Virus record (IMG/VR): IMGVR_UViG_2636416110_000005
Strand: one strand, 5' to 3'
Source: a virus
Lineage: Duplodnaviria; Heunggongvirae; Uroviricota; Caudoviricetes
DNA length: 43,746 nucleotides
Shown here one piece after another: positions 20-20,758 of the stretch (positions are counted from its first letter, which is position 1; the number at the start of each line of letters is the position of its first letter). A model generated the notes under the pieces. That model was not told the DNA's origin. It was given only the letters and a program-made list of their open reading frames with translations, and did no database searches. The translations under genes were made by a program, and so were the position numbers.

Positions 20-1300
20 TTAATTTTTCATTGCTTCGTTATGGGGCATGGTTGGGGCAAACTCGCTTAACTGTGTATTTAACAAAGCTACCTGTGCATT
101 ATTGTTTTCAGACATCCATTTTCCGTATACCTGAAATACCATTTGCGCATCTGCATGGCCCATCTGGTTTGCTATAAATGCCGGGTTAGCACCAGCTGTC
201 AGCGACCAGCAGGCATAAGTATGTCTCGACTGATATGATTTTCGATGGCGGAGTCCGGCACGTTTTATCGCTGCGTCCCACATCTGCCTTATTGAGTCAA
301 CGGTAAAATGGTCACCATAATTTTTTACTCTCGCTGACACTTCAGGTTGAAAAACAAAGGTGCATTTTTGTTTTTCTGTTCTGCCATACTCTCTGAGGTG
401 AACATCAATGATATGCTCTTTGCTCAGTCTCGTTAATGTCATCTGACTCCGGAGAGCGTCGATTGCTGGCTTAATAAGATGAATGACCCGATTGGTTCCC
501 GCCTGTGTTTTTGGTACCGTGAAACGGTCTTTTGCTAAATTTCTCCTGATCATCATTGTTCCATTTTTCAGATCTATGTCCTCCCATCCAAGTGCACACA
601 GCTCACCAGGGCGAACTCCAGTATAAACAGAAACACACCATAAATTTTTTGCTTGCTGATTTCTGCACGCATCGATAAGACGGATAAATTCTTCCCGCGA
701 AAGAGGATCCGGAATGGTTCTTGATTCCTTTAATGGCGAGATCCCCTTAAACGGATTATCTGCCAGGTAACCGTTATCAACACCAAACTGGAACACGGCG
801 TTAAGATTTGTCATGTAATTATTTACAGTTACAGCCGATCTCCCTGGTTGTGTAACAATATAGTTACTTTTGGGGATCTGGTATCCAGTCAGTAACTCTT
901 TACGAACCTCCAGTAATTTTTCTTTATTAATCGATGAGGCAAGATTTTTTTCACCGATTATGCTCAGGATATTTTTGATGACGGCACGGTATGTGTTGAG
1001 TGATGTTTTGGCGACTTCAGTTTCTTTCAGTGCCAGAAATTTTTCAGCCAGTTCTTTTATGGTTAAATCTTGTCGGGCCTCACCAAATTTTTCCAGATTG
1101 CGTGAGGAGGGAAACTGTTTTGCATAGTCGAAAACACCAGTTTTTATTGCGTAACAAACAGAGGAGCGTAGTTCACCTGCAACGCGCCTGTTTTTTGCTG
1201 TGTCAGGAACCCCCAGATTTTCCCTGACTCTTACGTCTTTATAAACAAACCAGATACGTAATTTCCCTCCATGGTTTTCCACGCCTGTCGGATATTTCAT
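20..1300 (-). CDS. int: phage integrase, tyrosine recombinase (lambda family)
   Basis: ORF 20..1315 (431 aa); N-terminus MKYPTGVENHGGKLRIWF and C-terminal catalytic region typical of lambdoid integrases; followed by xis-like gene. Start probably ATG 1300 (MKYP, preceded by GAGAAG); 1315 is the alternative. Confidence 0.9.
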   Translation of the reverse strand: MKYPTGVENHGGKLRIWFVYKDVRVRENLGVPDTAKNRRVAGELRSSVCYAIKTGVFDYAKQFPSSRNLEKFGEARQDLTIKELAEKFLALKETEVAKTSLNTYRAVIKNILSIIGEKNLASSINKEKLLEVRKELLTGYQIPKSNYIVTQPGRSAVTVNNYMTNLNAVFQFGVDNGYLADNPFKGISPLKESRTIPDPLSREEFIRLIDACRNQQAKNLWCVSVYTGVRPGELCALGWEDIDLKNGTMMIRRNLAKDRFTVPKTQAGTNRVIHLIKPAIDALRSQMTLTRLSKEHIIDVHLREYGRTEKQKCTFVFQPEVSARVKNYGDHFTVDSIRQMWDAAIKRAGLRHRKSYQSRHTYACWSLTAGANPAFIANQMGHADAQMVFQVYGKWMSENNNAQVALLNTQLSEFAPTMPHNEAMKN

Positions 1301-1334
1301 TTCAACTTCTCTCATTAGTTAGTGTGGCTTTTAG

Positions 1335-1586
1335 TCAAGTAAGATGACGTCTTGGTCTCGCTGATGCCTGGCGCTCAATCCAGCGATCAATTTCTTCCAG
1401 GTTGTAAAAGCATGGACTGTTATCCCATGGCATACCGTCATGAGCGACATGCTTATATTCCCTTCCTTCCATAAACGATTTTTCCCGGGCCTTTTTTAAC
1501 GTACCTTTTTTTATTCCTTTCAGCGCAATTAACTGCTCTTCGGATACCCATTTGCCGGGAGAGACAATCATGATTACTTCGCTCAT
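1335..1586 (-). CDS. xis: excisionase-like protein
   Basis: 83-aa ORF immediately upstream of int on the same strand; size and position fit a prophage excisionase. Family assignment from position and memory, not a search. Confidence 0.55.
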   Translation of the reverse strand: MSEVIMIVSPGKWVSEEQLIALKGIKKGTLKKAREKSFMEGREYKHVAHDGMPWDNSPCFYNLEEIDRWIERQASARPRRHLT

Positions 1587-1658
1587 CGATTTCTTTATCT
1601 CTTACATCAGACGAGCGCCGGTTGCAGAATACCAGTCACAACCGGCGACAGTTGAACA

Positions 1659-4130
1659 TTAAGAATCAGCCTGACTCGGGATCAGTTTTTGCCAGATAAC
1701 TGAAACGTATTTTGCCTGGTAACGGGCGTCATCAAGTGCATTATGGCGCTCACCTTCGAATGGAATAGCCGTTCTGGCATCGAAGTCTATGGCTTTCCCC
1801 AGCTCAACGATTGTGCGTACATCGCGATCGTTGTAGTAACGCCACGGGCAGGGGATCCCCTGCCGTTCGTATGAACGGCGCAAAATCGTGTTGTCGAAGT
1901 TGGCTCCATTTCCCCAAACCTGAACAAAAAATTCACCGGAGTTTTCGTCGATAAATTCTCGCAATTGTAACAGTGCATCATCTAACGGGATTTCATCGGT
2001 CATAATGGCAGATTGCGCTTCGCGTGATTGCTTAAGCCACCATTTAATGGTGTCCCGATCAATGACTCCGCCAGCAGTTTCCAGATCGATAGTCTTACTA
2101 AATTCCGGTCCCATATCTCCGGTTTGCGGATCGAAAAATATTGCACCTATTGAGATGATCGGGGCATCAGGATTTTTTCCCATGGTTTCAAGGTCGATCA
2201 TTAGATGGTCACACGTCCTGCTGGTGGATGTGATTTCGTGATGACCGTTCACCTTAATTGGGTGATCTGCCGTCTCGCCAGTTTCATTATCGCTATTGTG
2301 ATGCTGATTGCCGCCAGTGTTCTCCTTGTGTGGATGTTCAGCGCCTTCCATTTCCTCCGGATCATCTTCCTGAACTTCAACCTGATACTCTTCATCGAAT
2401 GTTTCTTGGTATGTTGCGTCGCCCATCACCGCGCCACAATCAGGGCAGTTGCCGCCGCCGGTCTGACCGCAGGCGGTGCAGACTTTTTCCACTTCCTGTT
2501 GCGCTACTGGTTCAGGCTGTTTCGTTTCTGGCTCGTTTTGTAACGCATTTGGACTGTTTTGTTCCGCTTTTTGGTAGTTCCGTTCCGATTCATGCTGGTT
2601 CTGGTTCACAGAATCGCGGGTCTGGAGCCCCTTAACCCATTTCGGATCATTCGGGTCACTAATCCCTTCAACAAATTCACCACGTGATGCAGCAAGCAAC
2701 TTATCGGCGTCAGGCTGGCTGATATTGGCTGCCTGCATAATTTTGTTTACTTCGTCAGCGGTAACTTTTATCGGCTCTGGTTGTTCTGAATCTTCAGCGG
2801 TATCTACATTTTGCGGTAAGCCCGTGTATGTGCCATTTTTTCGGGCAAAATATTCTTCTTTTGTGATTTCAGTGGCGCCAGCAGCCAGTGCCTTATCCAG
2901 ACCAGAGAGTTTGTTTGCGCGACCGTATTTTTCTCCGTCCTTATCTGCGAAGAGGAAATAGAACGGCCCCTCACGCTCTACAGATGGTTCAGCTTCCGGC
3001 GCGGTTTCATTTTTTGGGATATCAGATACCTCAGTTTCCACTGCATCAGTTTGTGTTTCTGATGACTGGAGAACATCAACAGTGCCCAGGTCTGTTTCTT
3101 CATTCTCAAACACGCCCTTTGTCGTCAGGTATTCGCAGATATATTTGTTCAGTGCTACGGGATCTTTGTGAATGTCGATCGGACGCTCACGGACAAGGCC
3201 AAAAATAGTTTGGCGGTCGTAGCGAAGGGCATCAGGCTGTTTGCGCATTGATGCCGAGATACGCTTCCAGTCTTCGCGGTCGTTGTCGATAACTTCTTTT
3301 TTTGCCCAGCGATGGATGCTGCCGTCAATGTTTCCGGCATCCACATCACTAGGCCAGAGAGCGTAGGCCAGTTCGTCATCCAGTGTTTTCCATGTCTGCT
3401 TGTATTCGCGATGAATGGCAGCAATGACCGGGCTGATTTTTCCTGTTGAATTTTCAGTGTACTGTTGATTGGCTCTGGCGCGGGCGAGATCAACAACAGA
3501 CGTGTATTTTCCGGTTTCCTTGCGTTCACCTTCGCGACGTTTTTTCCAGATGCGCATCTCTGCCTGAATTTCGGGCCATTTAGCACCAGGAATACATTTA
3601 TGCTTAACCCACCCAATGGCGTGCAACTTAAGCTCCGGATACATGGCGTTAACTTCTGGCATTTTCATCAACGCTTCAACGATATGTCCGTCGAATGTTG
3701 CCATGTCTTCCTGCAACAATTCCTGTGCGCTAATAACCATATCAACGGTGATGTTTTCACATGTGTCGAACTTAACCATGACAGCGTTCTGTACTTCAGG
3801 GGCCAGCTTGTCAAAAGTGACGTTCATCGGATCGGATTCAGTCTCAACCGGGACAAAAGAAGCAGACTCCTCATCCCAGCGGTTTTCCTGCATATATTCA
3901 GCATCCCATGAATCGAGGGCAGGGCGGGGTATGCCAGGTTTATCCTCGCAGACAATAAATTTATAAGCGCAGTCCTGAGCAGCCGGATAATGTTCCAGGA
4001 ATTGCCAGTGAAATTTTGCTCGAGCACGGCGTTCGTCGCCAGCTTCAATGGCTGTGGCTACAGCCACAGCGCCTTCTTCCCTTGTTGCCAGTTCGTCAGG
4101 AATAGCGGCGCAAATAAAGACTTTACTCAT
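1659..4130 (-). CDS. large phage exonuclease with C-terminal DEDDh-type 3'-5' exonuclease domain (intact YdfE-like)
   Basis: ORF 1659..4166 (835 aa); C-terminal region has IDLETMG ... GNGANFDNTILRR ... HNALDDARYQ, resembling DnaQ-like DEDDh motifs. Occupies the slot of the truncated ydfE of K-12 Qin. Start likely ATG 4130 (MSKVF, GAGG 9 nt upstream); 4166 alternative. Confidence 0.8.
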   Translation of the reverse strand: MSKVFICAAIPDELATREEGAVAVATAIEAGDERRARAKFHWQFLEHYPAAQDCAYKFIVCEDKPGIPRPALDSWDAEYMQENRWDEESASFVPVETESDPMNVTFDKLAPEVQNAVMVKFDTCENITVDMVISAQELLQEDMATFDGHIVEALMKMPEVNAMYPELKLHAIGWVKHKCIPGAKWPEIQAEMRIWKKRREGERKETGKYTSVVDLARARANQQYTENSTGKISPVIAAIHREYKQTWKTLDDELAYALWPSDVDAGNIDGSIHRWAKKEVIDNDREDWKRISASMRKQPDALRYDRQTIFGLVRERPIDIHKDPVALNKYICEYLTTKGVFENEETDLGTVDVLQSSETQTDAVETEVSDIPKNETAPEAEPSVEREGPFYFLFADKDGEKYGRANKLSGLDKALAAGATEITKEEYFARKNGTYTGLPQNVDTAEDSEQPEPIKVTADEVNKIMQAANISQPDADKLLAASRGEFVEGISDPNDPKWVKGLQTRDSVNQNQHESERNYQKAEQNSPNALQNEPETKQPEPVAQQEVEKVCTACGQTGGGNCPDCGAVMGDATYQETFDEEYQVEVQEDDPEEMEGAEHPHKENTGGNQHHNSDNETGETADHPIKVNGHHEITSTSRTCDHLMIDLETMGKNPDAPIISIGAIFFDPQTGDMGPEFSKTIDLETAGGVIDRDTIKWWLKQSREAQSAIMTDEIPLDDALLQLREFIDENSGEFFVQVWGNGANFDNTILRRSYERQGIPCPWRYYNDRDVRTIVELGKAIDFDARTAIPFEGERHNALDDARYQAKYVSVIWQKLIPSQADS

Positions 4131-4222
4131 TTGTTTTAACCTCATGACAGATTTAAGGATGAACAAATCCCTGCCATTGCTGGCATATAAGAATGAAACC
4201 GGATATTTATTACGGAACTGTT

Positions 4223-4414
4223 TTAAAGACCTGCCGGGATTTCGATATTATCCTGGTGAATAACTTTATCGACCGGGTAACAGTTACCGGGAATTTTCTG
4301 TTCGGTTGCTGCAGTCATACACTCCTGCATTGTCCTGTGAACACTGACTGCAATATCAACTGGCTCTCCGGAAACAAGAAAAACTGTCAGAACAAGCACA
4401 AATGCTGAATTCAT
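4223..4414 (-). CDS. ydfD: YdfD-like small lysis protein
   Basis: 63-aa product MNSAFVLVLTVFLVSGEPVDIAVSVHRTMQECMTAATEQKIPGNCYPVDKVIHQDNIEIPAGL with N-terminal hydrophobic segment; matches remembered K-12 YdfD; start overlaps dicB stop by 4 nt. Confidence 0.8.
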   Translation of the reverse strand: MNSAFVLVLTVFLVSGEPVDIAVSVHRTMQECMTAATEQKIPGNCYPVDKVIHQDNIEIPAGL

Positions 4415-4599
4415 TGTGCACATCCTTTTGGCATCAGACGTAAACGAGCCAGCATTGAAACAATGCATATTTTATTTAATAGCTCCCGTTCTTGTTTTCT
4501 CTTGTTAATGGCATCTTCAGTAAATACTGGGTTACTGATAGTGACACCAATTTCAAAACAACCTTCAGACGTATTAACGTTTGGTAATAACGTTTTCAT
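4411..4599 (-). CDS. dicB: cell-division inhibitor DicB
   Basis: 62-aa product MKTLLPNVNTSEGCFEIGVTISNPVFTEDAINKRKQERELLNKICIVSMLARLRLMPKGCAQ, internal start of ORF 4411..4704; matches remembered K-12 DicB; lies downstream of DicF. Confidence 0.88.
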   Translation of the reverse strand: MKTLLPNVNTSEGCFEIGVTISNPVFTEDAINKRKQERELLNKICIVSMLARLRLMPKGCAQ

Positions 4600-4764
4600 T
4601 ATCGCGTCCTCAACAATGAATTTTGTGATGCAGTGCCTGGTGCCTCCAGGTGACGTTAACCAGTTAACAATTAACGCCGGATACAGAGAATCCACCCATA
4701 ACACTGTTTTTGGTTTTAACTGTTCCGCGTGCGCTCAGCCGCATTCACCACATCACAAAATTCA

Positions 4765-4812
4765 CTTTAAAAAGGGCGGCAGAGCAGTCACGGAGTAAAA
4801 CTGATACCGCCA
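4765..4812 (-). terminator. Rho-independent terminator forming the DicF 3' end
   Basis: GGCGG ... CCGCC stem within the DicF 3' half followed by TTTTT on the transcribed strand. Confidence 0.6.
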
Positions 4813-4826
4813 AACGTCACCAGAAA
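4774..4826 (-). ncRNA. dicF: DicF small RNA (53 nt)
   Basis: Reverse complement of 4774..4826 reads TTTCTGGTGACGTTTGGCGGTATCAGTTTTACTCCGTGACTGCTCTGCCGCCC, the remembered DicF sequence; followed on the minus strand by a T-run (4765..4773). Confidence 0.88.
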
Positions 4827-5166
4827 ATTGATAACAGAGGGCGTTGCAGCGGGGTTGTCACTTAAGCGTATGGTCAACCTGACAACCCGGTGTCCTCAAC
4901 GGGGAAGGAATAACCCCGCCATACTTACCGCCGCGCCATTTCGCGGGTTGCCACAACCGGAAGCGCACGGTCGACGAAAATTTAACGACAGGCTATCTAT
5001 GAACCAGCTACCTCGCCGTGCGCTTTCGCGTTATGGTCTGACTTTTCAGGGAAATATCCTTTCAGTAAACTGTCAGTTCCGGATGCGCACCCGTGTCCGG
5101 CGCACGCACTCCACCTCACCCGTGGAGAACTCCTTAATTACTAACCTTAGCTTTGTTGATTAGCTA

Positions 5167-5385
5167 CTAACGCGGGTATGTAATCATTCTGGCAATGCTT
5201 AATGCCGCTGCTTTTTCCAGATTGGTGATATCCTGCTCCAGAGCGGACAGATTTTCAGCCTGCTTAGCCCTGGCTTCATTAGCCCATTTCAGATCCTGCG
5301 CTGCATTAATTTTCTGGCGCATCCACTCATAAAGTTCATCATCGGTATAGTCTGGCGCGATGATGACGGGTTCTCGTTTCTGCAT
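5167..5385 (-). CDS. ydfC: YdfC-like protein, dicB operon
   Basis: 72-aa ORF MQKREPVIIAPDYTDDELYEWMRQKINAAQDLKW...; size and sequence match remembered K-12 YdfC; upstream of dicF on the same strand. Confidence 0.8.
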   Translation of the reverse strand: MQKREPVIIAPDYTDDELYEWMRQKINAAQDLKWANEARAKQAENLSALEQDITNLEKAAALSIARMITYPR

Positions 5386-5414
5386 ACTGATTCCTCGCGG
5401 TGCTGTTTCGCTTA

Positions 5415-5543
5415 TCAGCCGTTAGATTTTGCCGAACTGGAAAGCGCCTGTTTAAACTCACTGAAGCTGAGAGCTTCTTCGCCTTCGGCAAGGCCTTCGA
5501 AGTATTCTTCGTAAGCCTTTTCCATGATTGTGTCGAAATCCAT
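5415..5543 (-). CDS. ydfB: YdfB-like small protein (42 aa)
   Basis: Read by hand, below the ORF-track cutoff: MDFDTIMEKAYEEYFEGLAEGEEALSFSEFKQALSSSAKSNG; ATG 5543 lies 2 nt after the ydfA stop; the overlapping 69-aa ORF 5339..5548 is in another frame. Confidence 0.7.
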   Translation of the reverse strand: MDFDTIMEKAYEEYFEGLAEGEEALSFSEFKQALSSSAKSNG

Positions 5544-5544
5544 A

Positions 5545-5700
5545 TCACTCACCTGAGTTTCTTTCCAGCCAGCGACGGGCACCATTTTCGGTTTTAAACG
5601 TTTTGCTTTTGGTATACGTCATTGCGGTGAACGTGCCGTCCTGGTTTGGAAACACGCCGTACACCAGAGATTCGTTGTTGCCAAGATCGATAGTATCCAT
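5545..5700 (-). CDS. ydfA: YdfA-like protein (51 aa)
   Basis: Internal start of ORF 5545..5778: MDTIDLGNNESLVYGVFPNQDGTFTAMTYTKSKTFKTENGARRWLERNSGE; first gene of the leftward dicB operon. Confidence 0.75.
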   Translation of the reverse strand: MDTIDLGNNESLVYGVFPNQDGTFTAMTYTKSKTFKTENGARRWLERNSGE

Positions 5701-5780
5701 GCTGACCTCATTTCCCCTTAACGCTGGGGTAGCGGAACTGTTTGCTGAGAACACCGTGCGGTGTGTTGATGCAAACAAGA

Positions 5781-5795
5781 TTAGCCATGACTAAC
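5781..5795. promoter_or_regulatory. operator-like imperfect palindrome TTAGCCATGACTAAC in the dicA-ydfA spacer
   Basis: Near-repeat of the palindrome at 6326..6341; sits between dicA stop and ydfA start where a leftward early promoter/operator is expected. Confidence 0.4.
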
Positions 5796-5866
5796 ATATC
5801 GGTCAAGTGATTTTGTATGCTATAGCTAACATAATTGATGTGGTAAAAGATAACTCATTGATGATG

Positions 5867-6274
5867 TTATCTTTTATTTGTCCGCTGACGGGCTTTTAGT
5901 AATTCTTCAAAGAGTTTATTGAAGTTTTTTACTCGAGCTCGCATTTCGGCGAGCTGGGTATCCTGTTCTGATTCTGGCAGTGCATTAAACAGCTCAAGGA
6001 GCTCTAGTTCTTTGGGGGATAAGGCAACTGGCTTCTCAACAGGTGGTGTTGGTTGCTTGTCTTCATCGCCAAATAGAATCCATGTTGGTGAGCATTGCAA
6101 TACTTTGCTGAGGGCAAAAAGGTTCTTCCCTGTAGGTTCACTATCACCCCGTTCCCATTGTGATACAGACACATGGGAGATTTTCAGGGCTTTAGCAAGA
6201 GACCTTTGGGTGTGTTTGAGGTTTTTCCGACGATACCTGATGCGTTCGCCGATAGTTAAATTTTTTGTTTCCAT
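5867..6274 (-). CDS. dicA: HTH XRE-family repressor DicA (cI analogue)
   Basis: 135-aa ORF METKNLTIGERIRYRRKNLKHTQRSLAKALKISHVSVSQWERG...; matches remembered K-12 DicA; divergent from dicC. Confidence 0.9.
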   Translation of the reverse strand: METKNLTIGERIRYRRKNLKHTQRSLAKALKISHVSVSQWERGDSEPTGKNLFALSKVLQCSPTWILFGDEDKQPTPPVEKPVALSPKELELLELFNALPESEQDTQLAEMRARVKNFNKLFEELLKARQRTNKR

Positions 6275-6325
6275 AGTTAGCTAATGCTAAATCGTATTGA
6301 CTATGTTTTTGTTAACATCTATCTT

Positions 6326-6341
6326 GTTAGTTATGACTAAC
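6326..6341. promoter_or_regulatory. operator-like palindrome GTTAGTTATGACTAAC in the dicA/dicC divergent promoter region
   Basis: Inverted repeat GTTAGT..ACTAAC centred in the 83-bp dicA-dicC spacer; related GTTAGCTAATGC motif at about 6277; related copy at 5781. Confidence 0.45.
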
Positions 6342-6357
6342 AATAAAGGTGTTTTAA

Positions 6358-6588
6358 ATGCTTAAAACTGACGCTCTTTTGTATTTCGGTTCAAAAACAA
6401 AACTTGCACAAGCAGCAGGTATTCGTTTGGCTTCGCTTTATAGCTGGAAAGGGGATTTAGTTCCCGAAGGTCGCGCGATGCGTCTACAGGAGGCATCTGG
6501 CGGGGAGCTTCAGTATGATCCCAAAGTTTATGATGAATATCGTAAGACGAAGCGGGCGGGGCGGTTGAACAATGAAAATCACTCCTGA
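6358..6588 (+). CDS. dicC: Cro-like regulator DicC
   Basis: 76-aa ORF MLKTDALLYFGSKTKLAQAAGIRLASLYSWKGDLVPEGRAMRLQEASGGELQYD...; matches remembered K-12 DicC. Confidence 0.88.
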   Translation: MLKTDALLYFGSKTKLAQAAGIRLASLYSWKGDLVPEGRAMRLQEASGGELQYDPKVYDEYRKTKRAGRLNNENHS

Positions 6589-7093
6589 ACAGGCTCGTGA
6601 GGCTCTGGATGCCTGGATATGTCGACCAGGAATGACACAGGAGCAGGCGACGATATTAATCACTGAAGCATTCTGGGCTTTGAAAGAGCGCCCGAACATC
6701 GATGTTCAGCGTGTCACATATGAAGGTGGCGCGATTGATCAGCGAGCGCTTGGCGTTAATCGAGTGAAGATATTTGAACGCTGGAAGGCTATCGACACCA
6801 GGGATAAGCGTGAAAAGTTCACGGCGCTAGTGCCTGCAATTATGGAGGCTATCCGGATTAATGATTTCAGGTTGTATCGTGAAATTACTGACGGAAAAAG
6901 CATCACGTGCATGATCGCCGGGTTAAACAAAGAATATGGCGATGTGGTGGAGTCCGGACTGCTTTTTGCTGATCCTGCCGTAGTGGATCGTGAAACTGAC
7001 GAACTTATAGAAAAAGCAATTGCTTTCAAACTTGCGTATCGACAGCAATACCAACAAAAAGCTGGATGGAATTATGAGCCTTCTTTTTGCTGA
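6572..7093 (+). CDS. hypothetical early protein (cII/YdaT-like position)
   Basis: 173-aa ORF overlapping dicC stop, same strand; function not recognised. Confidence 0.55.
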   Translation: MKITPEQAREALDAWICRPGMTQEQATILITEAFWALKERPNIDVQRVTYEGGAIDQRALGVNRVKIFERWKAIDTRDKREKFTALVPAIMEAIRINDFRLYREITDGKSITCMIAGLNKEYGDVVESGLLFADPAVVDRETDELIEKAIAFKLAYRQQYQQKAGWNYEPSFC

Positions 7094-8039
7094 ACGCCCA
7101 CTGGTTATAAACACGCAGCTGGCAATGAAAATTGGCTTAAACGAAGCCATTGTTTTGCAACAACTGCACTACTGGTTGAGAGATACCAACTCCGGCATGG
7201 AATGTGATGGTGTTCGCTGGATTTATAACACAACGGAACAATGGCTGGAACAGTTCCCATTCTGGTCAGAGTCAACGTTAAAGCGCGCGTTTGCAAGTCT
7301 GAAAACGCTGGGGCTTTTGCGTTGTGAAAAGCTCAATAAATCAAAGCGCGATATGACCAATTTCTACACGATCAACTATGGGAGCGAGCTTTTAGATGGT
7401 GGCAAATTGAGCGAATCCATCGGTTCAAAATGCGCCGCTCCATCAGGTCAAAATGACACGATGGAAGAGGTCAAAATGAAACGCTCCATTGGTTCAAAAC
7501 GACCCAATGTCATCGGGTCAAAATGGCCTGATGATCTTACAGAGAATACAACAGAGATTACTACAGAGAATAAAAACACTTTTCGTCCGGAAGCTTCGCA
7601 ACCGGACCCGCAGACGACTGAACAGGATTTTTTAACCCGGAACTCCGACGCGGTTGTGTTTAGTGCGAAAAAACGCCAGTGGGGTAGCAGGGAGGATTTG
7701 GCGTGTGCGCAGTGGATCTGGGGGCGGATCGTGGGTCTCTACGAACAGGCAGCCAGTGATGATGGCGAGATCATGCGACCAAAAGAGCCTAACTGGACTG
7801 CCTGGGCCAATGACGTGCGCACAATGCGGATGCTGGATGGCAGAAGCCACAGACAAATTTGCGAAATGTTTGGTCGGGTTCAGCGAGATCCATTCTGGGT
7901 AAAAAACATCATGAGCCCGTCAAAGCTCCGCGAAAAATGGGACGAACTGGTCATCCGCCTGGGACGTTCACCTGTACAGCGTTGTGTTAATCATATTTCT
8001 GAACCGGATACAGAAATTCCGCCTGGTTTCAGAGGATAA
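7074..8039 (+). CDS. phage replication initiation protein (replisome-organizer-like)
   Basis: ORF 7020..8039; N-terminal LLFAERPLVINTQLAMKIGLNEAIVLQQLHYWL resembles replisome-organizer N-terminal HTH domains; start likely ATG 7074 (MSLLF) with GGATGG upstream; 7020 alternative. Confidence 0.7.
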   Translation: MSLLFAERPLVINTQLAMKIGLNEAIVLQQLHYWLRDTNSGMECDGVRWIYNTTEQWLEQFPFWSESTLKRAFASLKTLGLLRCEKLNKSKRDMTNFYTINYGSELLDGGKLSESIGSKCAAPSGQNDTMEEVKMKRSIGSKRPNVIGSKWPDDLTENTTEITTENKNTFRPEASQPDPQTTEQDFLTRNSDAVVFSAKKRQWGSREDLACAQWIWGRIVGLYEQAASDDGEIMRPKEPNWTAWANDVRTMRMLDGRSHRQICEMFGRVQRDPFWVKNIMSPSKLREKWDELVIRLGRSPVQRCVNHISEPDTEIPPGFRG

Positions 8040-8079
8040 GTGTTGATTTCAGGTCATGAGGTAATTTTAAGGGGGACTT

Positions 8080-8502
8080 GTGGCAAAAGTTTTTACACAA
8101 GAAGAGCGGGAAAAAATTAAATGGCAGGTGGTGGAACTCGTGCGCCAGAGCGGCCGTGAGACGTTACGGCAACTGGAAGCTAAAACAGGTGCGACTAGAT
8201 ATCTGATGAGCGTTCTTGCCAGAGAGCTGGTAGCCAGTGGCGATGTATACAACTCCGGCTACGGGTTATTCCCCTCTGAACAGGCGCGTAAGGACTGGCA
8301 AAACGCCCGCAAAAAACTCTCGAGGGCAAAGGTGAAGAAACCTGCTGTGGTTGATCCGGACCTTATCTGGTCATCACCTGACGGAGAAATACGTCGCTAC
8401 GACAGTCGCCTAAACATAATCTGTCGCGAGTGCCGGAAGAGCGAAGTTATGCAGCGCATACTGGCTTTCTATCAGGGTAATTTTCAGGACGTGGCGCAGT
8501 GA
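8080..8502 (+). CDS. hypothetical protein with N-terminal winged-helix-like segment
   Basis: 140-aa ORF with RBS GGGGGA upstream; stop TGA overlaps GTG start of the next ORF (GTGA), indicating translational coupling. Confidence 0.6.
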   Translation: MAKVFTQEEREKIKWQVVELVRQSGRETLRQLEAKTGATRYLMSVLARELVASGDVYNSGYGLFPSEQARKDWQNARKKLSRAKVKKPAVVDPDLIWSSPDGEIRRYDSRLNIICRECRKSEVMQRILAFYQGNFQDVAQ

Positions 8503-8945
8503 GTGCACCGGCAACCATTCTTGATATGTGCTGTGGCAGCCGCATGTTCTGGTTCGATAAGTCTGACGAACGGGCGATATTCAGCGATATCAGAAAAGAA
8601 GGATACACATTACGCAATGGGAGACGCTTGATTATCAGCCCTGACATTATCGCAGATTTTCGTGCATTATCATTTGCAGACGCATCTTTTTCGATGGTTG
8701 TATTAGACCCTCCGCATCTTGAGAGTGTTGGTGATAACGCCTGGATGGGAAAGAAATATGGACGGCTGAATAAAGATGCCTGGCGTGATGATTCGCGACA
8801 GAGATTTAAAGAAGCCTTTCGGGTGTTGAGGCCGCACGGCGTTCTGATTTTTTAATGGAATGAAACGCAAATACCGGTAAGCCAGATTCTGGCACTGACA
8901 GACAGAAAACCTGTTATCTGTCAACGAACAGGGAAAAAACGATAA
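8499..8945 (+). pseudogene. SAM-dependent (DNA) methyltransferase-like gene interrupted by in-frame TAA
   Basis: ILDMCCGSRMF (motif I-like) and MVVLDPPH (DPPY/DPPH-like motif IV) in ORF 8499..8855; TAA at 8853..8855 is followed in frame by 29 more sense codons (WNETQIPVSQILALTDRKPVICQRTGKKR) to TAA 8943..8945. Confidence 0.55.
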
Positions 8946-9117
8946 AACCCACTGGATTATTTTTATGAAAGAGGCATCCAGTGAGTAGATTCGTAAGGCT
9001 ACAGATACGTATATCTGAATAATTAAATTCAGTTCTGTAAATAAAATTTAATCCTTAACCGGATGGATTTCTGCACCCTCAGAACATCAGGAGGCCGCCC
9101 GAAAGGGCGGTAGTGAA

Positions 9118-9228
9118 ATGCGAAAGTTCAAAATTATTATTGAAACGGGAATAGCTGGTGGAGATTTTGAGGATGTATTCGAAGTGGACGATGACGCAAC
9201 ACCTGAGGAAATTCATGACGGAGCATAA
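9118..9228 (+). CDS. small acidic hypothetical protein (36 aa)
   Basis: MRKFKIIIETGIAGGDFEDVFEVDDDATPEEIHDGA read by hand; AGGAGG at 9089..9094 is separated from the ATG by a GCCGCCC-GAAA-GGGCGG hairpin. Confidence 0.3.
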   Translation: MRKFKIIIETGIAGGDFEDVFEVDDDATPEEIHDGA

Positions 9229-9277
9229 GAAATTTTCTTTAACTACTGCAATTACTCATACCACGAAATAAAAGACG

Positions 9278-9469
9278 ATGAGGAAGAACAAAGTGGCTGA
9301 TTTTTGTTCAGCTAAATATAACATCAGTTTTGAAGAGCGGGATGAACTATTAATGGACTATGGTGAGTTACGCGGTGGAAGTGCTGCTGATGTCGAATCC
9401 TAGCGTGATGACTATGAAGCGGGAAAAACTCCGGTCGAAGCATATTGTGATGAGTGGGGCGATGAATGA
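9278..9469 (+). pseudogene. small ORF with in-frame TAG (41 codons, TAG 9401..9403, 21 codons)
   Basis: MRKNKVADFCSAKYNISFEERDELLMDYGELRGGSAADVES*RDDYEAGKTPVEAYCDEWGDE; its TGA overlaps the ATG of the next ORF. Confidence 0.3.
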
Positions 9470-9753
9470 GCGAGATTAATTATCAGGAAGGGCATGAAAC
9501 GGCGGGGCAAGCAAAACCAGTGGCATGGCGATATCGCTACGTGAAAAAAGGCGTTACGGACTTTCAGGGGAAGTAGTGGTCTGGTGACTGGAAATATGTA
9601 CCGAAAAAAGAGGATTGTAACGACAGGCCGAACTATCAAATTCAGGCCTTATTCACTGCCTCACCAGTCCCAGTTACATCAGAAGAACTGGTTAAAGCTG
9701 TGCACTTTTATGAACAACTAAAACGCGAAAATCCACCAACATCCGGCAACTAG
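9466..9753 (+). pseudogene. small ORF with in-frame TAG (36 codons, TAG 9574..9576, 58 codons)
   Basis: MSEINYQEGHETAGQAKPVAWRYRYVKKGVTDFQGK*WSGDWKYVPKKEDCNDRPNYQIQALFTASPVPVTSEELVKAVHFYEQLKRENPPTSGN; start overlaps preceding ORF stop (ATGA). Confidence 0.3.
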
Positions 9754-10008
9754 ATTAATGGATTAACTATGTCGGTTAAACGACCAGCCAACTGAAAAAG
9801 CGGAAACCTGATTACAGGTTGCCAGATAAGGCAATGAGCTACCTGGCGCGGAACGGACTGATAAGTATGGGGAATGTTTTACGATGAACCTTTAGACTAA
9901 AGAGTTTGTAACGCTATGTAAGTGATTTTTTCTGGTTTAGATATTTATATGTCCGGCCAAATTGAGGTGTGTTTAAATGTAATTGCACATTGATTGTAGG
10001 AGGAATAA

Positions 10009-10187
10009 TGAAAAACGCATTGCAGTTTTTGTTTGTTGCGTTCTGGTTGTTCGCATCATGTATGCCCATCATCTTCACAGCAAGGTATATGGAAAAAGTT
10101 GATGTTTTGATATTAATATTTGGATATATAAATGCCCTTTTTTTAGGGGTGTTCATGGCGGTCATGTGCATTGAATACTGGCGGTAA
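10009..10187 (+). CDS. small hydrophobic (two predicted TM) protein, 59 aa
   Basis: MKNALQFLFVAFWLFASCMPIIFTARYMEKVDVLILIFGYINALFLGVFMAVMCIEYWR; strong SD AGGAGG 6 nt upstream of ATG 10009; AT-rich upstream region. Confidence 0.5.
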
Positions 10188-10459
10188 ATACAGCGAACTC
10201 CATTGGTTTAGTTGGATATTTACTGTGCTGGACAAAAACGGTTTGCGGGGAAATCTTAGTTAAGTAGAATGACTGCGGGTGCTTGAGGCTATCTGCCTCG
10301 GGCATGGACACCAACGGCAGATAGAGAAAAGCCCCAGTTAACATTACGCGTCCTGCAAGACGCTTAACATTAATCTGAGGCCAATTTCATGCTAGACACA
10401 TGTAGGTTAGCCTCTTACGTGCCGAAAGGCACGGAGAAGCAGGCTATTGTTAACACCAA

Positions 10460-12080
10460 GCTGTAATGTCCCCTTTGAACCATTCTAAAATGTCCCCAGA
10501 CAATTCTCTGGGGGATTTTTCATGATCAAAGAGACTGTTACGATGAGTCATAAGGAACTCCACCGACTTCAGATTATTCAGGAACAAGCTGCGGCACGCA
10601 TTGGCATTTCTATTCGGCAGGTTAAACGTCTGGTGCAACGGTATAGAAATGAAGGGCCTTCTGGTCTGGTTTCCCACCGACGTGGAAAGCGTCCTAATAA
10701 TTCCTTTTCTACTGAATTCAGAGCAACAGTAATTTCACTCCTCAAAGGCCGTTACGCTGATTTTGGACCTACGTTTGCGTGCGAAAAATTGCGCGAGATA
10801 CACGGTTTATCTTTATCCGTTGAAACTCTCAGAAAGTGGATGATAGAAGAGGGGTTATGGCGTGAACGCCGTCGTAAAATTGCCCGTATATATCAACGCC
10901 GCATGCGACGACCATCTTACGGTGAACTGATCCAGATTGATGGCTCACCTCATGACTGGTTTGAAAATCGAGGCCCCAGATGTACACTGATCGTTTTCAT
11001 TGATGATGCCACCAGTGCGTTGATGGCGTTGCGTTTTGTGCCTGCTGAAACAACCCGGGCTTACATGGAAACCCTCCGGGGTTACCTTAATGATCATGGC
11101 GTACCGCTCGCTCTCTACTCTGATAGACACAGTATATTCAGGGTAAATAACCCAGAGCGGGAAGGTGAGCTGACCCAGTTCACTCGTGCGATAAAGACAC
11201 TGGGCATCGAGCCAATCCATGCCAACAGCCCGCAGGCAAAAGGGCGGGTAGAGCGCGCCAATCAGACACTACAGGACAGGCTGGTCAAAGAAATGCGGCT
11301 TCAGAATATCAGTGATATTGAAACAGCAAATGCATGGTTGCCGACCTTTATTGAAGCCTATAACAACCGGTTCGCTACGTCGCCTCGTACTACTGATAAT
11401 GCTCATCTTGATGTGCACCATTCTGAAGAGGAACTGGGTTATATCTTCAGCCTACAGGCGAAGCGCGTTCTGTCTAAAAATCTCACTTTCCAGTACAAAA
11501 GCAGTGCGTTTCAGGTACGCAGTGAGGGCCGGGGATATCGACTTAGGCATTCGGTTGTTACTGTATGCGAGAACTTTGACGGTGAAATTAACGTTCTGTA
11601 TGACGGGAAAGCGCTGGGCTGGGAAAAGTATGTTGATGGCCCGGAGCCTATACCACTGGATGATGAAAAGAGTGTCCATGAACGAGTGGATAATGCCCGT
11701 ATTGATTTACGCTCAAAATACTATGTTAAACCTAAAGCTGACCATCCCTGGCTTACGCGCCGAACGCAAAGTCATCAGCAAGTTAAGCCCCCGAAGTTAC
11801 CTAAAAAGAAGCCTGATCCCGATAAAAAAGATTGAAACCAAGATCGATTCGGTTGAGTGCATATCCATTCATAGGGTAGATTCTTAAGTCGCGTTTCTGG
11901 TGTTCATTTTCGGGTGGTTTGTTACTTGTTTTACCGGGGATATGCCAGAAACGCGCTGAGTCAGTCTGGGCGGTGCGCGTAATGAGGCGTTATGGTAAAT
12001 AGCCTATGCTAATGTCCGCTAAGAGCAAGAAGCGGAAGTTGGCAGTTTTGTGGACTGTCCCCACAAAAGTGACTACAGAA
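10460..12080 (+). mobile_element. ISNCY-like insertion sequence (boundaries approximate)
   Basis: Transposase ORF flanked by repeated TGTCCCC-containing motifs (10465..10473, 10488..10496, about 12048..12056); terminal inverted repeats could not be defined by eye. Confidence 0.35.
10522..11835 (+). CDS. DDE transposase, ISNCY-like family
   Basis: 437-aa ORF with N-terminal HTH-like segment and integrase-core-like region (IDGSPHDWF ... DDATS ... lysine-rich C-terminus); family from memory, not a search. Confidence 0.75.
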   Translation: MIKETVTMSHKELHRLQIIQEQAAARIGISIRQVKRLVQRYRNEGPSGLVSHRRGKRPNNSFSTEFRATVISLLKGRYADFGPTFACEKLREIHGLSLSVETLRKWMIEEGLWRERRRKIARIYQRRMRRPSYGELIQIDGSPHDWFENRGPRCTLIVFIDDATSALMALRFVPAETTRAYMETLRGYLNDHGVPLALYSDRHSIFRVNNPEREGELTQFTRAIKTLGIEPIHANSPQAKGRVERANQTLQDRLVKEMRLQNISDIETANAWLPTFIEAYNNRFATSPRTTDNAHLDVHHSEEELGYIFSLQAKRVLSKNLTFQYKSSAFQVRSEGRGYRLRHSVVTVCENFDGEINVLYDGKALGWEKYVDGPEPIPLDDEKSVHERVDNARIDLRSKYYVKPKADHPWLTRRTQSHQQVKPPKLPKKKPDPDKKD

Positions 12081-12271
12081 ATAGTTGCAATTCATAATTG
12101 ATCATGGGTTGTCAGTTAAACTCGTGGCGATTTAAATAGACTAATTGGGAGTGCGTCCATTACTTATATCTTGTAATGTTAACTATCAGAAATGATACAA
12201 AGATAATATGTCTTTAAAGAAAAGGCTGATGGCGAAAAGTGGCCCGATGAGGGCCACAATACGGCTGTCAC

Positions 12272-12604
12272 TTAGACGTAAATATCAATGGTGCCAGCGG
12301 TATTTGTATCGTCTTTTTTCTCTTCTTTTTTATCAGGCTGAACTGTCGCGTCTTCATTCTTTTTCTCTGCCTGCTGCCTTAACAACTGCTCCAGTTGAGC
12401 CCAGAGGCTTTCAATTTGCTTCTGTACCAATGCAGCCATTTCTTTTTTCTGCTGTGTCGTCATCCCCTCTTCCGATGAGATTTTCCCAAGCTTTTCAGTC
12501 AGCACCTGAATTTGTCTTGTGATTTTGGCTATTTCTGATGTTCCTTCCGGGGCGGAGTTGTTTGAAATAACGGTTGAGGTATTTCCCTGAATTGTGACAG
12601 ACAT
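12272..12604 (-). CDS. flxA: FlxA-like protein
   Basis: 110-aa ORF MSVTIQGNTSTVISNNSAPEGTSEIAKITRQIQVLTEKLGK...; matches remembered K-12 FlxA; AGGAG RBS. Confidence 0.85.
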   Translation of the reverse strand: MSVTIQGNTSTVISNNSAPEGTSEIAKITRQIQVLTEKLGKISSEEGMTTQQKKEMAALVQKQIESLWAQLEQLLRQQAEKKNEDATVQPDKKEEKKDDTNTAGTIDIYV

Positions 12605-17154: not shown

Positions 17155-17454
17155 AAAAATTCCTTAATACTGATAACTTGGCGCACTATACACACGTTCC
17201 TGAAGAAAGCTATAGTTTTTTGATGGGGTTGAAGATGGCTGGATGTCTAAAATAAACATTGCTTCATATGTTCAACTATGCGTTAATGATTGCGTCGGTT
17301 TGAAGAACAGACGATATACGAAGTAGTTTACTAAAGCAGTTCTCATTTCAGGTGTTATTCACTTATTCCTTCTTTGAGTCTCTCCAATTAAGTACGAAGT
17401 CGTTTCTGTTATGCAAACCATTTATGCCGAAAGGCTCAAGTTAAGGAATGTAGA

Positions 17455-17670
17455 ATGTCAAATAAAATGACTGGTTTAGTAAAATGGTTTAACGCTGATA
17501 AAGGTTTCGGCTTTATTTCTCCTGTTGATGGTAGTAAAGATGTGTTTGTGCATTTTTCTGCGATTCAGAATGATAATTATCGAACCTTATTTGAAGGTCA
17601 AAAGGTTACCTTCTCTATAGAGAGTGGTGCTAAAGGTCCTGCAGCAGCAAATGTCATCATTACTGATTAA
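17455..17670 (+). CDS. cspB: cold-shock protein CspB
   Basis: 71-aa [74 protein letters not shown]; divergent from cspF with about 300-nt spacer. Confidence 0.88.
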
Positions 17671-17952
17671 AATTCATCGCTCGTCTGTATACGATAACGA
17701 AGAAGGCTGATGCCTGAGTAGAGATACGGACAGAGTAGTGAATATTGGATCTCTTTAATAAAAAGTAAGGAGGTCCAATACATGAAACAATGGCTAGCAT
17801 ATTTGGCAAAATCTTAATCAGGAAAAGTATGCTAACCATTGTGGTGAAGTGCAGGTTTGCTGCATGAATAGTTTTACAGCAGAAGCTAACTGCTGGCATG
17901 GCAAAACAAAGTGCGTAAGTGGATGACTCCCACAAAAAGCACCACAATCTCA

Positions 17953-19979: not shown

Positions 19980-20341
19980 GGTAATATTAAATCGGAACAT
20001 TTACATCGCGGAATGTAAAATTTAAATAAAAAGGACTCTTCCATGAGCCAAAATTCCTGAAATCTTAAGGGTAAGATAAAAGGTCTTAATCAGAATGACA
20101 CGTTTTATTAATAAATAAAGCTATTCTTTCATTGCTGTGTTTTTCTTTACAAAAGTAATCCTTGCTATGGGTGGTTAATCATGCGTTAATGGTGTTCTGG
20201 TTTGTTACAAATTTATCTGAAGCAGTCATTGTTATAATTTTATTATTTGTACCTCTTGAGATTTCCTTGTTGGTTTTTCTCTCTGATATTTTTTTTCGGA
20301 CCATTCTGCCCAAGGGCTAATTTCTTCAAAAGGTAATAATT

Positions 20342-20554
20342 ATGTCTAACAAAATGACTGGTTTAGTGAAATGGTTTAACCCTGAAAAAGGTTTTGGTTT
20401 CATCACGCCGAAAGATGGCAGCAAAGATGTGTTTGTCCATTTCTCAGCAATTCAGAGCAACGATTTCAAAACATTAACTGAGAATCAGGAAGTTGAATTT
20501 GGTATTGAGAACGGACCTAAAGGTCCTGCCGCTGTTCATGTAGTGGCGCTTTGA
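20342..20554 (+). CDS. cspI: cold-shock protein CspI
   Basis: 70-aa [73 protein letters not shown]. Confidence 0.88.
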
Positions 20555-20758
20555 GGTAGACAATATTACAAACCATATTCACTTTAGATGCCCGTGTTGT
20601 CATGGTTCCCAGTATAGAACATCATCTTTTGATGTTTCTGACATGAATCCTTTCGGGGCAAAATGTATCTTTTGTAAATCAATGATGATTACATTTGATA
20701 ATATTTCACAATACTTAAATGCCAGCCGTCTGTCGTTGGATTTAAAAAAGTGAAAATG

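What the first reader, a model, noticed from the sequence alone, without database searches (positions are those of the whole stretch)
8080..9753. Cluster of translationally coupled genes interrupted only by in-frame stop codons
A methyltransferase-like ORF (motif I LDMCCGS, motif IV DPPH) has an in-frame TAA followed by 29 more sense codons. Two downstream small ORFs, joined by an ATGA overlap, each contain a single in-frame TAG (9401..9403 and 9574..9576) with protein-like sequence on both sides. No frameshifts were seen. This may be recent nonsense decay of an HTH + methyltransferase + small-protein cassette, or genes that depend on a suppressor background.
Basis: seen in the sequence. Interest (0 to 1): 0.6.

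Follow-up and report, generated by a model that had tools for sequence, protein, structure and literature searches.

The report
Decayed accessory genes in Qin-type prophage
The in-frame stop codons are real, but they mark four ordinary dead accessory genes (also damaged by frameshifts and a deletion) in the well-known Qin-type prophage of E. coli, not genes that need a suppressor to be read.

Summary
The three reported stops (TAA 8853, TAG 9401, TAG 9574) are in the sequence. They are not sequencing errors: 8040-9800 is 100% identical in many independently sequenced complete E. coli genomes. The window is the Qin-type lambdoid prophage beside rspB (dicA/dicB/dicC, DicF, relBE, hokD).

Intact homologs carry sense codons at each stop:
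- Lys in 80/80 methyltransferase homologs.
- Trp in the second small gene.
- Gln, Pro or Leu in the third.

- A DUF7167 gene (9118-9300) has a missed TAA at 9226.
- The supposed natural stop at 9751-9753 is another nonsense codon (CAG in homologs).
- The methyltransferase also has a +1 frameshift (8931-8933).
- The third gene also has a 90-nt deletion and a 4-nt frameshift deletion; its remnant runs to 9887.

Substitution patterns fit neutral drift, and stops are not over-represented. The window has no tRNA. UAA and UAG replace three different amino acids, and the late genes are open, so suppressor dependence or recoding is not supported. RefSeq already flags two of these genes as pseudogenes. 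One oddity is unexplained: three stops fall at codon 37 of consecutive genes. Ordinary, low interest.

The parts
8080..8502 (+). lygF / DUF977 (Ren-like) gene, intact, 140 aa. Its TGA overlaps the methyltransferase GTG start (GTGA).
   Evidence: Pfam DUF977 E=5e-29. PHROG 142 'Ren-like exclusion protein' E=1.6e-47. Annotated intact in RefSeq.
8499..8988 (+). Pseudogene of a small phage DNA methyltransferase (PHROG 954). Motif I is LDMCCGS and motif IV is DPPH. It is truncated to 118 aa.
   Evidence: The reconstructed protein matches PHROG 954 at E=6.7e-80 over profile positions 52-205. An intact homolog lies in Stx2c phage EH0430 (open frame L008 1438-1968; 175 aa from its first Met).
8853..8855 (+). 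Nonsense codon TAA in the methyltransferase (ancestral AAA, Lys).
   Evidence: 80 of 80 IMG/VR homologs have Lys here, AAA in 75 and AAG in 5. DNA alignment.
8931..8933 (+). +1 frameshift in the methyltransferase (extra G in a G run). The conserved C-terminus NDKTHWIIFMKEASSE follows in the +1 frame and ends at TAG 8986-8988.
   Evidence: DNA alignment with the intact homolog. Three-frame translation.
9118..9300 (+). g1: DUF7167 pseudogene (60 codons) with TAA at 9226-9228 (codon 37, ancestral AAA Lys).
   Evidence: Pfam DUF7167 E=1e-13. Intact homologs have K37. The allele count is AAA in 47 and TAA in 35 of 82 loci. RefSeq marks it 'internal stop'.
9293..9469 (+). g2: pseudogene of a 58-aa protein (PHROG 519). 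The start changed from ATG to GTG. TAG at 9401-9403 is codon 37 (ancestral TGG, Trp).
   Evidence: Intact homologs in 689R5, pPE4 and 640R1. TGG in 47 and TAG in 35 of 82 loci, perfectly linked with the g1 TAA and the GTG start. PHROG 519 E=1.6e-13.
9466..9887 (+). g3: pseudogene of a 119/171-aa protein (PHROG 660). Lesions: TAG 9574-9576 (codon 37; CAG, CCG or CTG in homologs); a 90-nt in-frame deletion between ENPP/DNPP repeats (~9731-9740); TAG 9751-9753 (CAG in homologs); a 4-nt deletion between 9784 and 9785. The remnant ends at TGA 9885-9887.
   Evidence: RefSeq marks 9466-9887 'frameshifted; internal stop'. PHROG 660 E=2.9e-45.
10277..10448 (+). Context: sok/mok leader of a hok/sok locus. 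Its hok ORF is cut off at its ATG by the ISNCY element that follows (transposase 10522-11835). This is another inactivated accessory gene in the same block.
   Evidence: Rfam RF01794, 104 bits. Alignment with 640R1 breaks at about 10447. NCBIfam ISNCY transposase E=7e-137.

Best explanation
Region 8499-9887 is a run of four dead accessory genes. They lie in the dispensable stretch between the replication genes and the Q-type antiterminator gene ydfT, in the Qin-type lambdoid prophage that sits next to rspB in E. coli.

Shown:
- Each gene was inactivated by ordinary point nonsense mutations: AAA->TAA twice, TGG->TAG once and CAG->TAG twice.
- The genes also carry small indels: +1 in the methyltransferase, and -4 and -90 nt in g3.
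- The products are truncated. The methyltransferase makes 118 of about 165 aa and loses the conserved THW-containing C-terminus. The three small genes make 36-aa stubs.

Inferred:
- None of the four genes is functional.
- The lesions arose once, in a phage or prophage lineage that then spread with them among E. coli lineages. The lesions are tolerated because these genes are not needed for phage growth or lysogeny.
- After inactivation the sequences drifted neutrally.

No read-through or suppression is involved.
For: - Identity of the element. Window 20-10439 is 99.9% identical to the prophage next to rspB in ATCC 8739, 042 and O55:H7, which carries dicA/dicB/dicC, relBE and hokD; the shared parts of the IS-disrupted IAI39 copy match at 99.9-100%. 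DicF RNA is present in the window.
- Sense codons in homologs. Lys in 80/80 methyltransferase homologs. For g1-g3: K37, W37 and Q/P/L37. CAG at 9751.
- Extra lesions. A +1 frameshift in the methyltransferase. In g3, a 90-nt deletion and a 4-nt deletion.
- The intact genes are real and under selection. dN/dS is 0.09 among intact g1 and g2 alleles. The window alleles against intact ones give 0.17-0.29, and g2 alone has about 10 private amino-acid changes including a conserved Trp.
- Neutral-like variation. Within stop-bearing g3 alleles there are 12 nonsynonymous and 5 synonymous changes.
- No excess of stops. 2 of 19 private substitutions are nonsense, against about 1.1 expected.
- Single origin and spread. 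The g1/g2 stops and the GTG start are perfectly linked. The identity distribution in 5,426 genomes is bimodal: 504 records at >=99%, only 14 at 95-99%, and the rest below 95%.
- Prophage younger than its host flank. The 10.4-kb early region differs by 0.01-0.14% between strains whose adjacent ynfA-rspB flank differs by 1.2-2.4%.
- RefSeq PGAP already marks g1 'internal stop' and g3 'frameshifted; internal stop'.
Against: - No expression or protein data were available, so residual function of the 118-aa methyltransferase fragment or of the 36-aa stubs cannot be excluded.
- RefSeq does not flag the 118-aa methyltransferase as a pseudogene.
- The three small-gene stops all fall at codon 37. The post hoc probability is about 7e-5 under random placement, and simple drift does not predict this.
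- The window's g1 and g2 alleles are 4-11% diverged from every sampled intact allele, so the order and timing of events on that branch is poorly resolved.
- Low prophage divergence could also reflect recombinational sweeps rather than infection.
Confidence: 0.9

Rival explanations
1. The genes are functional but depend on nonsense suppression or programmed read-through. The agent would be a host or phage suppressor tRNA, or stop-codon reassignment of the kind seen in some phages.
For: Protein-like sequence continues in frame after each stop, and homologs align on both sides. The g3 TAG at 9574 is widespread, in 45 of 82 sampled loci including some with intact g1 and g2.
Against: - No tRNA gene is in the 43.7-kb window.
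- Two different stop codons are involved (UAA twice, UAG three times).
- UAA stands for Lys twice. UAG stands for Trp once and Gln twice, so one inserted residue could not restore all three UAG sites.
- The methyltransferase and g3 also carry frameshifts, which read-through cannot repair.
- Late and structural ORFs are long and uninterrupted, for example 1157, 837 and 641 aa, unlike recoded phages.
- Polymorphism in stop-bearing g3 alleles is neutral-like at 12N:5S.
- Carriers are natural isolates of several phylogroups. That natural isolates do not generally carry suppressors is my own knowledge, not a test made here.
Confidence: 0.02
2. The stops are sequencing or assembly errors in this one record.
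For: None found.
Against: The region is 100% identical in many independently sequenced complete genomes, including ATCC 8739 (two assemblies), W (two assemblies), IAI39, 042, CE10, UMNK88 and O55:H7. It is also 99.9% identical in phage record PV340562, and 35 IMG/VR loci carry the same stops.
Confidence: 0.005
3. The inactivations were positively selected rather than neutral. On this reading, knocking out an orphan methyltransferase, three small early genes and the hok toxin is host domestication of harmful prophage genes.
For: - Five adjacent accessory functions are all knocked out (methyltransferase, g1, g2, g3 and hok by an IS), while the flanking replication, immunity, lysis and structural genes are open.
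- The disrupted lineage is common, in about 9% of complete genomes.
- Stops at codon 37 leave only about 66 nt untranslated before the next start. That would minimise polarity on downstream genes (inference).
Against: The number of nonsense changes is no higher than expected from the private substitutions. Intact versions of the same cassette are present in even more genomes: 1,526 genomes hold a match covering at least 80% of the intact cassette, so the genes are not generally harmful. No phenotype data exist.
Confidence: 0.07

Closest known systems
Qin (Kim) cryptic prophage of E. coli K-12 (dicA-dicC-dicB/DicF, relBE-hokD, cspB/F/I, between rspB and ydfJ)
   Same: Same attachment site next to rspB. 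Same immunity and division-inhibition module, DicF RNA, relBE, hokD, csp genes and lysis genes.
   Different: The window carries a fuller version, with replication genes, the decayed cassette, a full ISNCY copy and head/tail genes. From my own knowledge, not tested here, K-12 has lost the region between dicC and ydfW and so lacks these pseudogenes.
RefSeq/PGAP pseudogene calls at the same locus (e.g. ECOLC_RS26670 'DUF7167 family protein, internal stop'; ECOLC_RS26235 'frameshifted; internal stop')
   Same: Identical sequence. Two of the four pseudogenes are already annotated, with the same lesions as found here.
   Different: PGAP leaves g2 unannotated. It lists the 118-aa methyltransferase fragment (WP_001310834.1) as an ordinary protein.
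Intact three-gene cassette (60 + 58 + 119 or 171 aa) of lambdoid E. coli prophages, e.g. vB_EcoS-689R5 ON470583 12488-13195
   Same: Same gene order, the same 8-nt and ATGA overlaps, and 88-92% DNA identity.
   Different: All three genes are open there and under purifying selection (dN/dS about 0.09-0.2).
Dispensable nin-type region of lambdoid phages (between replication gene P and antiterminator Q)
   Same: Same map position and the same character: small, translationally coupled, non-essential genes. This is my own knowledge of phage lambda, where the nin5 deletion is viable. The position is shown.
   Different: The gene content is not homologous to the lambda nin genes. Dispensability here is inferred, not tested.
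Stop-codon-reassigned phages and amber-mutant laboratory phages
   Same: In-frame stop codons inside genes that have intact homologs.
   Different: There is no suppressor tRNA. Stop types are mixed, the replaced amino acids are mixed, frameshifts are present, the late genes are unaffected, and the hosts are natural isolates.

Membership tests
Qin-type prophage of E. coli | Integrated next to rspB, with the integrase at the junction | tested here: met
   The window begins inside the integrase gene (20-1315, minus strand), so the host flank is not in the window. Copies 99.9% identical lie directly beside rspB in ATCC 8739, IAI39, 042 and O55:H7.
Qin-type prophage of E. coli | dicA/dicC/dicB module with DicF RNA, plus relBE, hokD and csp genes | tested here: met
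   Annotated in the near-identical copies. In the window itself: Rfam DicF at 4774-4825 and cspA leaders at 17294-17686 and 20196-20581.
Pseudogene (decayed coding sequence) | Intact homologs carry sense codons where this copy has stops or frame breaks | tested here: met
   Lys in 80/80. K37, W37 and Q/P/L37. CAG at 9751 plus the indels.
Pseudogene (decayed coding sequence) | Relaxed selection compared with intact relatives | tested here: met
   dN/dS is 0.09 among intact alleles against 0.17-0.29 on comparisons involving the window allele. Within stop-bearing g3 alleles the count is 12N:5S. Sample sizes are small.
Pseudogene (decayed coding sequence) | No full-length product is made | not testable with these tools
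   This needs proteomics or ribosome profiling of a carrier strain.
Amino (N6-A/N4-C) DNA methyltransferases, phage family PHROG 954 | AdoMet-binding motif I and catalytic motif IV (D/N/S)PP(Y/F/W/H) | tested here: met
   LDMCCGS and DPPH are present. PHROG 954 E=6.7e-80. Pfam N6_N4_Mtase scores only 15.6 bits, below its 26.7-bit cut-off. No NCBIfam or PDB sequence match.
Amino (N6-A/N4-C) DNA methyltransferases, phage family PHROG 954 | Complete catalytic domain in one reading frame | tested here: not met
   TAA at codon 119 and a +1 frameshift 26 codons later.
DUF7167 (PF23768) | Match above the Pfam gathering score | tested here: met
   51.6 bits against a 24.4-bit cut-off, for g1 with the stop read as Lys.
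Suppressor-dependent or stop-codon-recoded phage genes | A suppressor tRNA encoded by the element | tested here: not met
   ARAGORN finds no tRNA in the window.
Suppressor-dependent or stop-codon-recoded phage genes | One stop codon consistently stands for one amino acid, and occurs widely in (late) genes | tested here: not met
   UAA stands for Lys twice; UAG stands for Trp once and Gln twice. Long uninterrupted late ORFs are present.

The most novel reading that the evidence does not exclude
The placement of the stops may not be random. Three consecutive translationally coupled genes are each cut at codon 37. Four successive stops (9226, 9401, 9574, 9751) are spaced 175, 173 and 177 nt apart. 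This could reflect either selection (for example for 36-aa stubs, or for stop positions that avoid transcriptional polarity on downstream phage genes) or an unknown periodic mutational process.
Probability: 0.03. Interest if true: 0.4.

Novelty: already known. Interest (0 to 1): 0.08.

Why it matters
It matters little for biology. This is a textbook case of accessory-gene decay in a prophage.

It has two minor practical uses:
- Annotation. The 118-aa 'class I SAM-dependent methyltransferase' WP_001310834.1 is a truncated fragment. g2 is an unannotated pseudogene. The g3 pseudogene has more lesions than its note implies.
- A small, clean marker. The linked set of five stops and three indels marks one prophage lineage that has spread across E. 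coli phylogroups with much less divergence than its chromosomal flank. That could be used to trace Qin-type prophage movement.

Tried and rejected
- Suppressor or recoding hypothesis. I looked for tRNAs (none) and for known RNA elements (nothing in 8080-9753). I also checked which amino acids the homologs carry and found them mixed. Rejected.
- The alternative +2 frame of g3, suggested by the annotated 85-aa ORF of phage 640R1 (A8 instead of A6 at 9542-9547). Rejected.
- My early idea that the window has a 57-nt insertion after 9745. Alignment with the 171-aa homologs shows this stretch is ancestral coding sequence and that 640R1/U2 carry an extra deletion. Rejected.
- Excess of nonsense mutations. 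Tested against private substitutions and the stop-creating fraction; no excess.
- Promoter and terminator scan of 7900-10600. Promoter-like sites do not exceed the shuffle expectation; terminator-like sites do (9 against 2.3), but none was followed up and none bears on the stops.
- Repeat search of 8900-12300. Nothing relevant to the stops.
- Literature search for PhiR42_1/ECOR13 and for Qin pseudogenes. No paper on this locus was found.
- PDB sequence search with the methyltransferase. No match.

Full report
**What the window is.**
- Region 8040-9800 is 100% identical in many complete E. coli genomes, among them ATCC 8739, W, IAI39, 042, CE10, UMNK88 and O55:H7. In all, 378 genomes hold a place covering at least 80% of it.
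- It is 99.9% identical to the phage record PhiR42_1 from ECOR13.
- In ATCC 8739, IAI39, 042 and O55:H7 the element lies directly beside rspB. It carries integrase, exonuclease, dicB, dicA, dicC, a ydaT-like gene, a replication gene, lygF, relBE, hokD, csp genes and lysis genes.
- Window 20-10439 matches the ATCC 8739, 042 and O55:H7 copies at 99.9% or better, and the shared parts of the IS-disrupted IAI39 copy at 99.9-100%.
- Rfam finds DicF at 4774-4825.
- This is therefore the Qin-type lambdoid prophage, in a fuller form that still has head and tail genes.

**Checking the observation.**
- lygF (8080-8502; DUF977, PHROG 142 'Ren-like') is intact.
- The methyltransferase ORF starts at GTG 8499 and overlaps the lygF stop. 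It has LDMCCGS and DPPH, stops at TAA 8853-8855, and continues for 29 sense codons.
- The two small ORFs joined by ATGA carry TAG at 9401 and TAG at 9574.
- The same bases occur in many independent assemblies, so they are not errors.

**What homologs carry at those positions.**
- Methyltransferase, stop. All 80 IMG/VR homologs have Lys (AAA in 75, AAG in 5) where the window has TAA.
- Methyltransferase, frameshift. Alignment with the intact homolog in Stx2c phage EH0430 also shows an extra G at 8931-8933. The conserved tail (GK.DKTHWIIFMKE...) is therefore in the +1 frame and ends at 8986-8988.
- Methyltransferase, family. With both lesions repaired, the protein matches PHROG 954 'DNA methyltransferase' at E=6.7e-80.
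- Small genes. Intact copies exist as a coupled cassette of 60 + 58 + 119 aa in 689R5 and pPE4.
- g1 (9118-9300, DUF7167). Has TAA at 9226 where homologs have AAA.
- g2 (9293-9469). Has TAG where homologs have TGG, and its start changed from ATG to GTG.
- g3. Has TAG at 9574 where homologs have CAG, CCG or CTG.
- g3 against the 171-aa form (L070). The remnant ends at 9885-9887.
- That end point matches the RefSeq pseudogene 'frameshifted; internal stop' exactly.
- In total there are five nonsense codons, two frameshifts, one deletion and one start-codon change across four genes.

**Is it more than chance, and is there selection?**
- Among intact alleles, dN/dS is about 0.09 for g1 and g2, so these are real genes. 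Comparisons involving the window alleles give 0.17-0.29.
- g2 carries about ten private amino-acid changes.
- The disrupted lineage has 19 private fixed substitutions in g1+g2, of which 2 are nonsense. With 5-6% of possible changes creating stops, about 1.1 are expected.
- Within stop-bearing g3 alleles, polymorphism is 12 nonsynonymous to 5 synonymous, close to the neutral ratio.
- All of this fits drift after loss of function.

**History.**
- The g1 TAA, the g2 TAG and the g2 GTG start are perfectly linked: they occur together in 35 of 82 loci, across 7 haplotypes.
- The g3 TAG at 9574 also occurs in 10 loci with intact g1 and g2. It is therefore an older or separately recombined lesion.
- Among 5,426 complete genomes, matches to the disrupted block are bimodal: 504 records at >=99% identity, only 14 at 95-99%, and the rest below 95%.
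- Matches covering at least 80% of the intact 689R5 cassette are found in 1,526 genomes.
- Between strains of phylogroups A, D, E and F, the ynfA-rspB host flank differs by 1.2-2.4%. The adjacent 10.4 kb of prophage differs by only 0.01-0.14%.
- I infer that one lesion-bearing phage or prophage lineage spread well after the phylogroups split. 'Recent decay' in a single strain is therefore not the right picture.

**Rivals.**
- Suppressor dependence or recoding fails on several counts. There is no tRNA. Stop types are mixed and stand for Lys, Trp and Gln. Frameshifts are present. The late genes are open. Variation is neutral-like.
- Sequencing error is excluded.
- Selected inactivation (domestication) remains possible but unsupported. 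The neighbouring hok gene is also knocked out by the ISNCY insertion. However, stops are not in excess, and the intact cassettes are at least as widespread among complete genomes.

**One oddity.**
- The stops in g1, g2 and g3 all fall at codon 37, and the next stop lies 177 nt further on.
- Random placement gives about 7e-5 for the codon-37 match. That figure is post hoc.
- The g3 stop arose separately, the original codons differ, and no shared sequence motif surrounds the stops.
- I treat it as coincidence and record it as unexplained.

**Verdict.** The feature is real but ordinary and largely already annotated: a block of decayed accessory genes in a known prophage. Interest is low.

Noticed in passing
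window 9226, 9401, 9574, 9751: The stops in three consecutive genes all fall at codon 37. Four successive stops are spaced 175, 173 and 177 nt apart. The post hoc probability of the codon-37 match is about 7e-5. I found no mechanism.
   Followed up: partly
window 10277-10448 and 10448-11835: A sok/mok leader (Rfam RF01794) loses homology with its intact relative exactly at the hok ATG (~10447). An ISNCY element begins there, with a full 437-aa transposase at 10522-11835. The hok toxin gene appears to be knocked out by the IS. In ATCC 8739, 042, O55:H7 and IAI39 the same transposase is itself truncated.
   Followed up: partly
window 10009-10187 (+): An unannotated 59-aa ORF with AGGAGG 6 nt upstream and two hydrophobic stretches, almost identical in phage 640R1. 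Two phage records (640R1, PhiR42_1) annotate an opposite-strand ORF in this stretch (9914-10165, minus strand), and RefSeq annotates nothing here.
   Followed up: no
window 9089-9118: A stable GNRA-loop hairpin, GGCCGCCC-GAAA-GGGCGG (9094-9111, centroid -15.5 kcal/mol), lies between an AGGAGG at 9089-9094 and the g1 ATG at 9118. It is conserved in 640R1. It might bring a distant Shine-Dalgarno sequence close to the start codon. This was not tested.
   Followed up: no
L001/L090/L091/L092 (prophage versus ynfA-rspB flank): The prophage early region is 10-100 times less diverged between phylogroups than the adjacent chromosomal genes: 0.01-0.14% against 1.2-2.4%. This points to recent spread or a sweep of this prophage at a fixed attachment site.
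   Followed up: partly
window 8499-8855; RefSeq WP_001310834.1: RefSeq lists the 118-aa truncated methyltransferase fragment as a normal 'class I SAM-dependent methyltransferase' rather than as a pseudogene.
   Followed up: yes
L002 (phage vB_EcoS-640R1) 4319-4576: The annotated 85-aa 'hypothetical protein' of this phage is a frameshifted reading. An A8 run replaces the A6 run of the same g3 pseudogene, and the copy still carries the TAG.
   Followed up: yes
window 4774-4825 (-), 17294-17686 (+), 20196-20581 (+): DicF sRNA and two cspA-type 5'UTR thermoregulators (ahead of the cspB and cspI homologs) are present, as expected for Qin.
   Followed up: no
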